Shown one piece after another: positions 10,001 through 13,000 of a stretch of DNA of 64,000 nucleotides (position 1 is its first letter; every line of letters begins with the position of its first letter). The stretch lies in NCBI RefSeq assembly GCF_988242995.1, contig NZ_OZ547043.1, one strand, 5' to 3'. The position numbers were made by a program.

Positions 10001-13000
10001 GTCTTTGTCCTGACTGATGTTTATCCTGTTTGGCTGCGAAATAAATATAAAATTAATACATATGTTTTAATGATGTATTTTTATAAATTATTTCCCACAT
10101 GAATTTTAATAAATTTAATCTATTCCTTTATACGCAATACATTTACTTTCCTCTTTTGATGATCTTAAATATCTTATTTTTCGTAATGTGTATAACAAGG
10201 AATAGTGATGAAATTTAAAAAATGTCTTCTGCCTGTGGCAATGTTAGCGTCATTCACTCTGGCAGGATGCCAGTCAAATGCTGATGATCATGCCGCCGAT
10301 GTTTATCAAACCGATCAACTGAATACCAAACAAGAAACTAAAACCGTTAATATTATTTCCATTCTTCCCGCAAAAGTTGCCGTAGACAACTCCCAAAATA
10401 AACGAAACGCACAAGCCTTCGGCGCGCTTATTGGTGCAGTCGCTGGCGGTGTAATCGGCCACAACGTGGGGTCTGGCAGCAATTCCGGAACGACGGCAGG
10501 TGCAGTTGGCGGCGGAGCTGTTGGCGCGGCAGCAGGTTCTATGGTGAATGATAAAACCTTAGTGGAAGGTGTTTCTCTAACGTATAAGGAAGGCACCAAA
10601 GTGTATACCTCCACCCAGGTGGGTAAAGAGTGCCAGTTTACGACAGGTTTAGCCGTTGTTATTACCACGACGTATAACGAAACGCGTATTCAGCCAAATA
10701 CCAAATGTCCTGAAAAGAGCTAATAATCAGGAGGAGTCATGAAGAAAGTTTTTCTTTGCGCCATCTTAGCCTCCTTAAGCTATCCGGCTATCGCCTCATC
10801 ATTGCAGGATCAACTCTCTGCTGTCGCAGAAGCGGAACAGCAAGGTAAAAATGAAGAGCAAAGGCAGCATGACGAATGGGTCGCGGAGCGCAACAGGGAA
10901 ATCCAGCAAGAGAAGCAACGTCGCGCAAATGCCCAGGCCGCCGCTAATAAAAGAGCGGCAACGGCAGCGGCAAATAAGAAAGCTCGTCAGGATAAACTGG
11001 ACGCCGAAGCCACTGCGGACAAAAAACGCGATCAAAGTTATGAAGATGAGCTACGCAGCTTAGAGATTCAGAAACAAAAACTGGCGCTGGCGAAAGAAGA
11101 AACCCGCGTTAAGCGCGAAAACGAATTTATCGATCAGGAACTGAAGCACAAAGCTGCGCAAACCGATGCGGTGCAATCTGAAGCTGACGCCAACAGAAAT
11201 ATGACTGAAGGCGGTCGCGATCTGATGAAAAGCGTGGGCAAAGCAGAAGAGAACAAATCGGACAGCTGGTTTAATTAATCGATGTTAGTAACTTCAAGCC
11301 TATGATTCTTGAAGATAATAAATATCCTCCGGCATAGCCGGAGGTTTTTCAAATGCGCCTGTAAGGCTCTGTTACCAGCCGCGCCCTAACAGGCGCATAC
11401 GATCTGACATTTGCATTCAACTTCGTTACTTACGGCCCGTAAACGGGCTGCCCGGATATGGAATCGATAACTGCTCCCCCATTTTATCCTCTTCAAGCTG
11501 GTGCTTTATGTAGTCACGTATCTTCGCCGTGTTCTTACCCACCGTATCGACATAGTACCCTCGGCACCAGAACTCCCTGTTTCTGTATTTGAATTTCAAA
11601 TCCCCAAACTGCTCGTAAAGCATCAGACTGCTTTTCCCTTTCAGATATCCCATAAAGCCGGATACGCTCATTTTGGGTGGGATTTCCACAAGCATATGGA
11701 TATGATCTGCGCAGCACTCTGCTTCCAGAATCCGTACGCTTTTCCACTCACACAGCTTTCTCAAAATACTGCCTATCGCCCTACGCTTCTCTCCGTAAAA
11801 CGCCAGTCTTCGGTATTTCGGCGCAAAAACTATGTGATATTTACAGTTCCAGCGGGTGTGCGCTAAGCTCTTTTCGTCCCCCATTGGGACCCCCTTTTGA
11901 TTTCTTGTTTGACACTTGCAGTTGCCAGACCGCAAGGTGTTTTAACAAATCAAAAGGGGTTTTAATAACTGGCTCAAAGCTGAAAGCTTTCCGGAACCCC
12001 CAGCCTAGCTGGGGGTTTTCTGTGCACAAAAAACCCTCTGTAGTAACAGAGGGTTTTGTTCATTCATAGTGCAGGGTCAAATCATTCCCACTCAATGGTA
12101 GCTGGCGGCTTGCCGCTGATGTCATACACCACGCGGGAAATACCGTTCACTTCATTGATAATGCGGTTGGAAACGCGACCGAGGAAGTCATACGGCAGGT
12201 GCGCCCAGTGTGCGGTCATAAAGTCGATGGTTTCGACAGCACGCAGAGAAACAACCCAGTCATACTTACGACCATCGCCCATTACGCCAACGGAACGTAC
12301 CGGCAGGAAGACGGTGAATGCCTGGCTGACTTTGTCGTACAGGTCCGCTTTACGCAGTTCTTCAATGAAGATGGCGTCAGCACGGCGCAGCAGGTCACAA
12401 TACTCTTTCTTCACTTCACCCAGAACACGAACGCCAAGGCCTGGTCCCGGGAACGGGTGACGGTACAGCATGTCGTACGGCAGGCCCAGCTCCAGACCAA
12501 TCTTACGCACTTCGTCTTTGAACAGCTCTTTCAGCGGTTCAACCAGGCCCATCTTCATCTCTTTCGGCAGGCCGCCCACGTTGTGGTGAGATTTGATGAC
12601 GTGTGCTTTACCGGTTGCAGACGCCGCAGATTCGATAACGTCAGGGTAGATAGTACCCTGCGCCAGCCACTTCACGTCTTCCAGTTTCAGCGCTTCTTCA
12701 TCGAATACTTCAACGAAAACGCGCCCGATGATTTTACGTTTTGCTTCCGGATCGTTTTCGCCAGCCAGCGCTGACAGGAAGCGATCTTCTGCCGGAACGT
12801 GAACAATGTTCAGACCAAAGTGATCGCCAAACATATCCAGAACCTGCTCTGCTTCGTTGAGACGCAGCAGGCCGTTGTCGACGAATACGCAAGTCAGGTT
12901 TTTACCGATAGCGCGGTGCAGCAGCATTGCGGTTACGGAGGAATCCACACCACCAGAGAGGCCGAGGATGACTTTATCGTCGCCTACCTGCTCGCGGATG

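What the first reader, a model, noticed from the sequence alone, without database searches (positions are those of the whole stretch)
11315..12022. IS200 copy inserted between the yfgI stop and the guaA bidirectional terminator
A ~0.7-kb element with a single HUH Y1 transposase (MGDEKSLAHTRWNCKYHIVF...HIHMLVEIPP) and the hallmark structured ends, including the RBS-sequestering stem-loop before tnpA, sits 37 nt after yfgI and ends ~6 nt from the guaA terminator hairpin. K-12 has no IS at this position as far as I recall, so this is a strain/lineage marker. IS200/IS605 elements insert next to specific short motifs near hairpins, and the element now separates yfgI from the terminator it probably shared with guaA.
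Basis: partly seen in the sequence, partly recalled or inferred. Interest (0 to 1): 0.45.

Follow-up and report, generated by a model that had tools for sequence, protein, structure and literature searches.

The report
Ordinary IS200 copy behind guaA terminator
This is an intact copy of the well-known small mobile element IS200, inserted directly after the transcription terminator of guaA; K-12 lacks it here, about 2% of complete E. coli genomes carry one at the same nucleotide, and it is an ordinary finding.

Summary
Window 11317-12027 (711 bp, ±2 nt, minus strand) is an intact IS200. It has one tnpA gene for a Y1/HUH transposase, two related hairpins near its ends, the published stem-loop that hides the ribosome-binding site, and a 146-bit Rfam STnc490 match. 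K-12 MG1655 has the empty site (GAAGAT|AAAAAACCCTCTG).

An IS200 sits at the same nucleotide in 106 of 5,426 complete E. coli genomes, in two sequence types. Divergence of the IS disagrees with divergence of the flanks. It is therefore a recurrent or converted polymorphism, not a clean lineage marker.

On the tnpA-sense strand the left end joins directly to the T6 tract of the guaA terminator, which stays intact. yfgI loses that shared terminator. It now runs into the IS right-end hairpin followed by TTTTT, which looks like a replacement terminator.

This placement is general. About 120 related copies from Yersinia, Vibrio, E. coli and others nearly all have a strong hairpin plus T-run immediately 5' of the left end. 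The 40-nt flank folds at a median of -18 kcal/mol, against -5 for controls.

Verdict: a known element and a known kind of event. Interest is low.

The parts
11317..12027 (-). Complete IS200 element, 711 bp. The top strand (tnpA sense) reads 5'-GTGCACAGAAAACCCCC...GGAGGATATTTATT-3'. Boundaries are ±2 nt because AA is present at both junctions.
   Evidence: Alignment with the empty sites of K-12-like L001 and MG1655 L124. The same 711-bp unit is found at 10 other E. coli loci.
11426..11884 (-). tnpA, encoding a 152-aa Y1 (HUH) transposase. HUH is at DHIHM, and the catalytic Tyr sits in RDYIKHQ. R123 replaces the usual Q.
   Evidence: Pfam Y1_Tnp 7e-37; NCBIfam transpos_IS200 2e-42; PDB 2ec2/2f5g/2a6m alignments; protein alignment.
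11995..12017 (-). Left-end subterminal hairpin AACCCCCAGC-TAG-GCTGGGGGTT. This is published IS200 nt 12-34, described as a bidirectional terminator that blocks incoming transcription and the presumed TnpA binding hairpin.
   Evidence: Exact match and DNA fold. Anatomy from PMC4513863 and PMC5435999. TnpA binding is inferred from the IS608 model.
12018..12027 (-). Left-end tip GTGCACAGAA. Its A-rich 3' part, next to the hairpin foot, is the candidate guide sequence that would pair with the T-rich target.
   Evidence: Position relative to the hairpin. The guide role is inferred by analogy with IS608 (PMC3201880).
11891..11959 (-). tnpA 5'UTR stem-loop that pairs the Shine-Dalgarno sequence (published nt 69-138).
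   Evidence: RNA fold -43.8 kcal/mol, z = -4.6; Rfam STnc490 structure alignment; PMC4513863.
11876..11965 (+). [quoted passage not shown] Placed by homology only.
   Evidence: Description in PMC4513863, mapped onto the window. No promoter was found by the scan. Not tested.
11326..11344 (-). Right-end subterminal hairpin CCTCCGGC-TAT-GCCGGAGG. It is related in sequence to the left-end hairpin, preceded by AAAAA and followed by the 9-nt tail ATATTTATT (11325-11317). Read on the + strand it is followed by TTTTT and looks like a terminator for yfgI.
   Evidence: Terminator scan on both strands; RNA and DNA folds.
12028..12057 (-). Insertion target: the guaA intrinsic terminator AAAA-CCCTCTG-TTACTA-CAGAGGG-TTTTTT. 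It is present and unchanged in the empty site, and the IS left end joins directly 3' of the T6.
   Evidence: Alignment with empty sites; fold -17.8 to -21.8 kcal/mol.
10739..11278 (+). yfgI (DUF5384), the upstream convergent gene whose transcripts now enter the IS right end.
   Evidence: Pfam DUF5384 2e-60; RefSeq annotation of homologous loci.
12082..13659 (-). guaA (GMP synthase), co-oriented with tnpA. Its terminator is the target.
   Evidence: ORF list; RefSeq annotation of homologous loci.

Best explanation
The segment is an intact, probably still mobile copy of IS200, the tnpA-only group of the IS200/IS605 family. It was inserted by the family's single-strand 'peel and paste' route. The top strand of the element, excised as a circle, was joined into single-stranded DNA on the lagging-strand template immediately 3' of the T6 tract of the guaA intrinsic terminator. 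No target duplication was made.

Shown here: the identity of the element, its exact insertion point, the unchanged guaA terminator, the strand, and the fact that related copies almost always sit at a hairpin plus T-run.

Inferred: the T-rich target is read by pairing with the A-rich bases just 5' of the left-end hairpin, as GL reads TTAC in IS608. A terminator is a favoured target because its A-run, hairpin and T-run resemble the element's own right end (AAAAA, hairpin, ATATTTATT).

Consequences for the host are probably small. guaA keeps its terminator. tnpA is shielded from guaA read-through by that terminator plus the left-end hairpin. Its translation is held down by the SD-sequestering stem-loop and, by homology, by art200. 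yfgI now most likely terminates at the right-end hairpin followed by U5.
For: Identity and family:
- Family hits, catalytic motifs and the Rfam match.
- A 711-bp insertion relative to K-12, with no duplication beyond an ambiguous AA.
- Left-end hairpin and SD stem-loop at exactly the published coordinates if nt 1 = 12028.

Strand:
- GC skew of the window + strand is negative in 7 of 8 blocks (overall -0.045), so the minus strand, which is the IS top strand, has the sequence of the lagging-strand template. This matches the family bias described in PMC5027513.

Target rule:
- 119 distinct left-end flanks fold at a median of -18.1 kcal/mol over 40 nt, against -4.9 after T-rich hexamers and -6.6 at random positions. 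96% reach -10 kcal/mol or lower, against 14% and 21% (Mann-Whitney p = 1.6e-63).
- The last six flank bases read T T T N T T.
- A strict perfect-stem test gives 89/120 against 0.8% at random positions and 9.4% after T-rich hexamers.
- 10 distinct E. coli sites all obey the rule: guaA, ybiJ, fdnI, fadR, plaP, ytfL, ccmH, purL, recA and one more.
- The distance from target stem to junction is mostly 6-9 nt, like the 9 nt between the right-end hairpin and the right-end tip.
- Head-to-tail IS1541 dimers use the right end of one copy as the target of the next.

Mobility:
- Copies 0-2 nt different from the window copy lie at other loci in public assemblies.

yfgI terminator:
- The right-end hairpin scores as terminator-like on both strands.
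Against: No transposition assay exists for this copy, and IS200 is known for very low activity (PMC4513863). R123, two residues before the catalytic Tyr, is unusual, although multi-copy spread of the same variant argues that it is tolerated. The guide-pairing and right-end-mimic steps are analogy, not measurement. The enrichment of an A-run 5' of the target hairpins is only modest (60% against 41%, p = 0.003). Survival bias could contribute to the terminator association, because insertions behind terminators are harmless. The new yfgI terminator and the unchanged efficiency of the guaA terminator are predictions from sequence only.
Confidence: 0.93

Rival explanations
1. A single ancient IS200 insertion at this site was inherited vertically. 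The empty sites in K-12 and most E. coli would then be ancestral lineages or precise losses, making the insertion a clean lineage marker.
For: The junctions are identical to the nucleotide in all three filled loci compared. The filled site is confined to 2% of genomes. Between the window and L003, IS divergence (4.2%) exceeds flank divergence (1.3-1.7%), which does not by itself exclude old co-divergence at a near-neutral rate.
Against: Between the window and L002, the IS differs by 2 of 711 nt (0.3%) while the adjacent 1.8 kb differ by 1.8% and 3.8%, including 4 differences within 20 nt of the right-end junction. L002 and L003 share a similar immediate flank but carry IS types that differ by 3.9%. 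The window's immediate flank is K-12-like. Copies 0-2 nt different from the window copy lie elsewhere in other genomes, so this subtype moved recently. The element is strongly site-selective, which makes repeated hits on one terminator plausible.
Confidence: 0.12
2. The terminator association reflects survival only. IS200 inserts after any T-rich pentanucleotide, and only copies that land behind terminators persist, because they disrupt nothing and are shielded from transcription.
For: The only invariant sequence feature of the flank is the T-rich end, which the A-rich guide-like bases would explain without any hairpin. The preprint 10.1101/2025.07.22.666184 interprets upstream terminators as contexts that limit transposase expression.
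Against: Only 9-14% of T-run ends in the same loci have a hairpin, against 74-96% of IS flanks. The junction lies at a narrow distance (6-9 nt) from the stem. 98% of 54 distinct Yersinia pestis flanks obey the rule. From my own recollection of the Y. pestis and Y. pseudotuberculosis genome comparisons, most Y. pestis copies are recent and purifying selection against IS damage there is weak. Tandem dimers use the right-end hairpin and tail as a target.
Confidence: 0.2
3. The copy is a dead relic, or a domesticated REP-associated tyrosine transposase (RAYT), rather than a functional IS.
For: IS200 transposes very rarely (PMC4513863). The Q123R change lies next to the catalytic Tyr. There is a weak NCBIfam hit to REP_Tyr_transpos.
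Against: The ORF is full length with the HUH and Tyr motifs, and both ends are intact and the same length as in other copies. The REP_Tyr_transpos score is 29.8 against a cutoff of 80, while transpos_IS200 scores 144 against 55. The same R123 protein is encoded at several different loci by IS copies 0-2 nt different from this one. No REP array flanks it.
Confidence: 0.07

Closest known systems
IS200 of Salmonella enterica and E. coli (IS200/IS605 family, IS200 group), including the copies RefSeq labels 'IS200C'
   Same: Size of about 0.7 kb with a single tnpA. Left-end hairpin at nt 12-34 and SD-sequestering stem-loop at nt 69-138, exactly as published. Rfam STnc490 match at 146 bits. 99.7% nucleotide identity to many E. 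coli copies and 94-96% to copies labelled IS200C.
   Different: 711 bp by empty-site comparison, against the published 707 bp for Salmonella. A private Q123R change in TnpA. It is not the IS200C sequence type, although 98 of the 106 filled E. coli sites appear to be, judging from the 60 records listed.
IS1541 of Yersinia pestis and Y. pseudotuberculosis
   Same: Same architecture, the identical 23-nt left-end hairpin, and the same right-end hairpin and ATATTTATT tail. It shows the same placement behind a hairpin plus T-run.
   Different: 86.5% nucleotide identity over 711 bp. The tip is GTGCCCAGAA rather than GTGCACAGAA. Copy number is much higher, and it forms tandem dimers.
IS608 (Helicobacter pylori) and ISDra2, the mechanistic paradigms of the family
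   Same: Homologous Y1 HUH transposase (E 2e-19 to 2a6m). Subterminal hairpins rather than terminal inverted repeats. Insertion 3' of a short sequence next to the left end without duplication. The top strand lies on the lagging-strand template.
   Different: There is no tnpB. The left-end hairpin lies 10-12 nt from the tip, not 19. The apparent target is a T-run preceded by a hairpin rather than a bare TTAC or TTGAT. Guide pairing has not been shown for IS200.
Bacterial group IIC introns
   Same: These are another class of mobile element that (from my own knowledge) inserts just downstream of intrinsic terminator stem-loops. That site is harmless to the host and shielded from transcription.
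   Different: They are unrelated in mechanism (retrohoming by a ribonucleoprotein) and share no sequence. The comparison concerns niche only.

Membership tests
IS200/IS605 family | Encodes a Y1 HUH transposase (TnpA) with the HUH motif and a catalytic tyrosine | tested here: met
   Pfam Y1_Tnp 126.7 bits (cutoff 23), NCBIfam transpos_IS200 144.3 bits (cutoff 55). DHIHM and RDYIKHQ align with solved TnpA structures.
IS200/IS605 family | No terminal inverted repeats; related subterminal hairpins at the left and right ends on the same strand | tested here: met
   Left end CCCCCAGC-TAG-GCTGGGGG and right end CCTCCGGC-TAT-GCCGGAGG are both on the tnpA-sense strand, 10-12 and 9 nt from the tips. The tips GTGCAC... 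and ...TTTATT are not inverted repeats.
IS200/IS605 family | Insertion without target-site duplication, with the left end joined 3' of a short specific sequence | tested here: met
   The K-12 empty site GAAGAT|AAAAAACCC compared with the filled site shows exactly 711 added bp, with only a 2-nt AA ambiguity. Flanks of about 120 copies end in T T T N T T.
IS200/IS605 family | Active (top) strand on the lagging-strand template | tested here: met
   The window + strand has GC skew of -0.045, and the locus is collinear with the K-12 left replichore, so the minus strand is the lagging template. This is one copy only, so it is consistent rather than a statistical test.
IS200 group (tnpA only) | About 0.7 kb with tnpA alone and no tnpB | tested here: met
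   711 bp. The only family-matching ORF is tnpA, and there is no room for tnpB.
IS200 proper | Left-end terminator hairpin at nt 12-34, SD-sequestering 5'UTR stem-loop at nt 69-138, and an art200/STnc490 region | tested here: met
   With nt 1 = 12028 the hairpin is 12017-11995 and the stem-loop is 11959/60-11891, matching PMC4513863. Rfam RF01405 scores 146 bits. art200 expression was not tested.
IS200 proper | ISfinder naming criterion: sequence identity to a named ISfinder reference isoform | not testable with these tools
   ISfinder is not available. Proxies: 99.7% to RefSeq copies annotated 'IS200/IS605 family transposase', 94-96% to copies annotated IS200C, 86.5% to IS1541A.
IS200 proper | Ability to transpose | not testable with these tools
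   Indirect only: copies 0-2 nt different at other loci in public assemblies.
REP-associated tyrosine transposase (RAYT) | Match to the RAYT model above its cutoff, flanked by REP/BIME arrays, single copy | tested here: not met
   NF047646 scores 29.8 bits against a cutoff of 80. No REP flanks are present. The element is multi-copy in E. coli.

The most novel reading that the evidence does not exclude
Elements of the IS200/IS1541 clade may seek out terminators by structure. On this reading their real target is not a bare short motif, as it is for IS608. [quoted passage not shown] The guaA/yfgI terminator would then be a recurrent hot spot, hit independently in several E. coli lineages. [quoted passage not shown] Older IS200 and IS1541 papers and the ISfinder/TnPedia pages that I could not open may already describe it. 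The probability given is that the reading is both true and not already described.
Probability: 0.2. Interest if true: 0.45.

Novelty: already known. Interest (0 to 1): 0.15.

Why it matters
For this window it matters little. It is one more IS200 copy in a harmless intergenic site, already annotated at the same position in 106 RefSeq E. coli genomes. Two practical points follow. First, because the same nucleotide is occupied by different IS200 types in different backgrounds, presence or absence here should not be used alone as a lineage marker. Second, the insertion exchanges the yfgI terminator for the IS right-end hairpin, which could slightly change the stability of the yfgI 3' end. The wider pattern seen along the way is that nearly every IS200 or IS1541 copy sits exactly at the end of a terminator T-tract. 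If this is not already formally described, it would give a simple rule for predicting insertion sites. It would also help explain why this IS is so well tolerated.

Tried and rejected
- **Terminator scan:** the scan did not list the guaA terminator. Its A/T runs extend the stem and leave too few T in the tail, so I checked it by folding instead.
- **Weak Rfam hits:** the hits to Ysr202 (11285-11349, 25 bits against a cutoff of 315) and the antisense STnc490 hit (22.6 bits) are only hairpin-plus-T matches and were discarded.
- **RAYT:** rejected on score.
- **Hairpin as part of the IS:** I considered that the hairpin plus T-run next to the left end might belong to the IS. It does not, because the hairpin differs at every site and is present in the empty K-12 site.
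- **Literature:** searches for a described IS200 or IS1541 target rule, or for this specific insertion, found nothing specific. Two older papers could not be opened.
- **Source genome:** I could not identify it. No complete RefSeq E. coli exceeds 98.9% identity over 7.9 kb. The exact-protein look-up showed other loci but not this one among the 10 places displayed.
- **Genome-contig scan:** The flank set is therefore not a balanced sample.
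Full report
**1. What is in the sequence**

Between yfgI (10739-11278, +; Pfam DUF5384) and guaA (12082-13659, -) lies a segment with a single sizeable coding ORF on the minus strand. This is tnpA, 11884-11426, 152 aa. It matches Pfam Y1_Tnp (7e-37) and the NCBIfam equivalog transpos_IS200 (2e-42), both far above their cutoffs. It aligns end to end with solved IS200-family transposases (2ec2, 2f5g, IS608 2a6m). The HUH motif (DHIHM) and the catalytic Tyr-x-x-x-Gln (RDYIKHQ) are in place.

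Rfam RF01405 (STnc490, the IS200 left-end and 5'UTR region) matches 11894-12017 on the minus strand at 146 bits against a gathering score of 56. It is the only such match in the 64-kb window. The 23-nt left-end hairpin also occurs only once in the window.

**2. Exact ends and the empty site**

I aligned the window with a K-12-like genome, with K-12 MG1655 itself, and with two E. coli genomes that carry an IS at this place. The empty site reads ...TTCTTGAAGAT|AAAAAACCCTCTGTAGTAACAGAGGGTTTTG.... The window has exactly 711 extra bases, 11317-12027. Because AA occurs at both junctions, the ends can be shifted by up to 2 nt. There is no other duplication.

On the tnpA-sense strand the element reads GTGCACAGAAAACCCCCAGCTAGGCTGGGGGTT...CCTCCGGCTATGCCGGAGGATATTTATT. 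The same 711-bp unit with the same tips is found at ten other E. coli loci. The gap after the yfgI stop is 38 nt. The 6 nt between the IS and the guaA hairpin are the A6 (T6 on the guaA strand) of the terminator.

**3. Internal anatomy**

If nt 1 is placed at 12028, the left-end hairpin falls at nt 12-34 and the 5'UTR stem-loop at nt 69-138. These are exactly the published coordinates for IS200 (PMC4513863). The 5'UTR stem-loop is predicted at -43.8 kcal/mol (z = -4.6) and pairs the Shine-Dalgarno sequence.

According to PMC4513863 and PMC5435999, the left-end hairpin is a bidirectional terminator that stops about 85% of incoming transcripts. The stem-loop represses translation about 20-fold. 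[quoted passage not shown] I placed art200 at about 11876-11965 (+) by homology only.

The right end has a hairpin (11344-11326) whose stem and loop resemble those of the left-end hairpin. It is preceded by AAAAA and followed by the 9-nt tail ATATTTATT.

**4. The insertion point**

guaA and tnpA are both on the minus strand. On that strand the sequence runs from the guaA stop through AAAA-CCCTCTG-TTACTA-CAGAGGG-TTTTTT and then straight into the IS left end. The element therefore sits at the very end of the T-tract of the guaA intrinsic terminator, which is left intact.

In the empty site the same hairpin, read on the + strand, is followed by TTTTGTT, 38 nt after yfgI.

In the window, yfgI transcripts instead meet the IS right-end hairpin. 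On the + strand this reads CCTCCGGCATAGCCGGAGG followed by TTTTT, and it scores as terminator-like in both directions. yfgI has probably swapped one terminator for another. This is a prediction, not a measurement.

**5. Strand**

The + strand of the window has negative GC skew in 7 of 8 blocks (overall -0.045). The locus is collinear with K-12 at 2.63 Mb in the left replichore. The minus strand, which is the IS top strand, therefore has the sequence of the lagging-strand template. That is the orientation expected for this family (PMC5027513).

**6. Distribution in E. coli**

IS200-like sequence covering at least 80% of the element is present in 2,063 of 5,426 complete E. coli genomes, with up to 35 places per genome. 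An IS200 at exactly this site is present in 106 genomes, or 2.0%.

Among the 60 best records, 8 carry an IS that differs from the window copy by 2 nt. The other 52 carry the type that RefSeq labels IS200C, which is 95.8% identical to the window copy.

The divergences are discordant:

| Pair | IS identity | Left flank (1.8 kb) | Right flank (1.8 kb) |
|---|---|---|---|
| Window vs E200086 (L002) | 99.7% | 98.2% | 96.2% |
| Window vs 2017C-4173W12 (L003) | 95.8% | 98.7% | 98.3% |

The window's immediate flank is K-12-like, while the other two share a different immediate flank. A single old insertion that co-diverged with its surroundings does not fit. Repeated insertion at the same nucleotide, or conversion from other copies, does. 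As a lineage marker the site is therefore prone to homoplasy.

The window strain itself has no close relative among the complete genomes. The best identity is 98.9% over 7.9 kb.

**7. State of this copy**

The ORF and both ends are intact. TnpA has R123 where the other E. coli copies compared have Q, caused by two adjacent base changes. The identical protein is encoded at several other loci in a few public assemblies and metagenomes, by IS copies 0-2 nt different from the window copy. This subtype has therefore moved recently.

**8. The placement is a general rule for this clade**

They came from Yersinia pestis (IS1541), Vibrio, Brenneria, Dickeya, Edwardsiella, Pluralibacter and several MAGs assigned to distant phyla. 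In nearly every case the bases just 5' of the left-end tip are a GC-rich hairpin followed by a T-run.

| Measure | IS left-end flanks | After T-rich hexamers | Random positions |
|---|---|---|---|
| Perfect-stem terminator test | 89/120 (74%) | 9.4% | 0.8% |
| Median 40-nt fold, kcal/mol | -18.1 | -4.9 | -6.6 |
| Share at -10 kcal/mol or lower | 96% | 14% | 21% |

The Mann-Whitney p value for IS flanks against T-rich hexamer ends is 1.6e-63. The last six flank bases are T T T N T T. The core stem ends 6-9 nt before the junction, like the 9 nt between the right-end hairpin and the right-end tip.

Ten distinct E. coli sites obey the rule, each behind the terminator of a co-oriented upstream gene. 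In Y. pestis, head-to-tail dimers show the right end of one copy (hairpin plus ATATTTATT) serving as the target of the next.

The sample is weighted towards Y. pestis. The control hairpins are also less stringent than real terminators.

**9. Mechanism**

In IS608, cleavage sites are read by pairing with four bases 5' of each hairpin foot, and the left guide also selects the target (PMC3201880). In IS200, the bases 5' of both hairpins are A-rich (GAAAA and AAAAA). Both the right-end cleavage site and the target are T-rich. The T-run preference therefore follows from the family mechanism by analogy.

The added hairpin requirement could have two causes. The terminator may be recognised as a mimic of the right end: an A-run 5' of the target stem is modestly enriched, 60% against 41%, p = 0.003. 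Alternatively, only insertions behind terminators may survive. The narrow spacing, the tandem dimers and the 98% compliance in Y. pestis favour a real preference, but no experiment here separates the two.

**10. Literature**

I found no paper on this specific insertion. [quoted passage not shown] It interprets this as limiting transposase expression.

**11. Verdict**

The element is a known IS, in a known kind of site, and is already annotated there in public genomes. Interest is low.

Noticed in passing
L132 (GCA_964045655.1) and L134 (GCA_005384585.1), IS at 2858-3568 of each locus: Two assemblies carry the window-type IS200 with the same flank on the right-end side (narP side) but different flanks on the left-end side (ccmH terminator against purL terminator). 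This suggests recombination or inversion between two IS200 copies in one of the genomes.
   Followed up: no
L069, L070, L072, L086, L116 (Yersinia pestis NCTC5923): These loci hold head-to-tail IS1541 dimers. The right-end tail ...CCGGAGGATATTTATT(T) directly abuts the next copy's left end GTGCCCAGAA, and the left-end hairpins are 710 bp apart.
   Followed up: partly
L004-L066 (genome-contig scan): The exact 23-nt IS200 left-end hairpin occurs in MAGs labelled Bacillota, Peptococcaceae, Mailhella/Desulfovibrio, Oxalobacter, Saccharibacteria and Elusimicrobiaceae, often at contig ends and always behind a hairpin plus T-run. This points to very wide horizontal spread of the clade, or to binning contamination.
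   Followed up: no
window 11894-12017: Rfam RF01405 (STnc490) matches the tnpA-sense strand at 146 bits. However, PMC4513863 describes STnc490/art200 as antisense to the tnpA 5'UTR, so the Rfam model appears to represent the sense strand (left-end hairpin plus 5'UTR).
   Followed up: partly
window 11517-11518 (tnpA codon 123): Two adjacent base changes give R123 instead of Q, two residues before the catalytic Tyr. The same protein is multi-copy in a few public assemblies.
   Followed up: partly
window 12100-20000: No complete RefSeq E. coli genome exceeds 98.9% identity over this 7.9-kb stretch (guaA, guaB, xseA and an adhesin gene). The nearest genomes include the ST2747 strains. The window strain therefore belongs to a lineage poorly represented among complete genomes.
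   Followed up: no
E. coli strains JL05, 13P484A, FLI21 (hits H34-H36), corresponding to window ~12095-12100: In these genomes the match to the empty yfgI-guaA site stops about 15-20 nt into the 3' end of guaA and continues elsewhere in the genome. This suggests a rearrangement or large insertion there.
   Followed up: no
window 46253-46867, 33363-33454, 54286-54395: These are Rfam gathering-level matches to IS128 RNA, ryfA, sroE and the iscRS element. They are ordinary E. coli small RNA loci and are unrelated to the finding.
   Followed up: no
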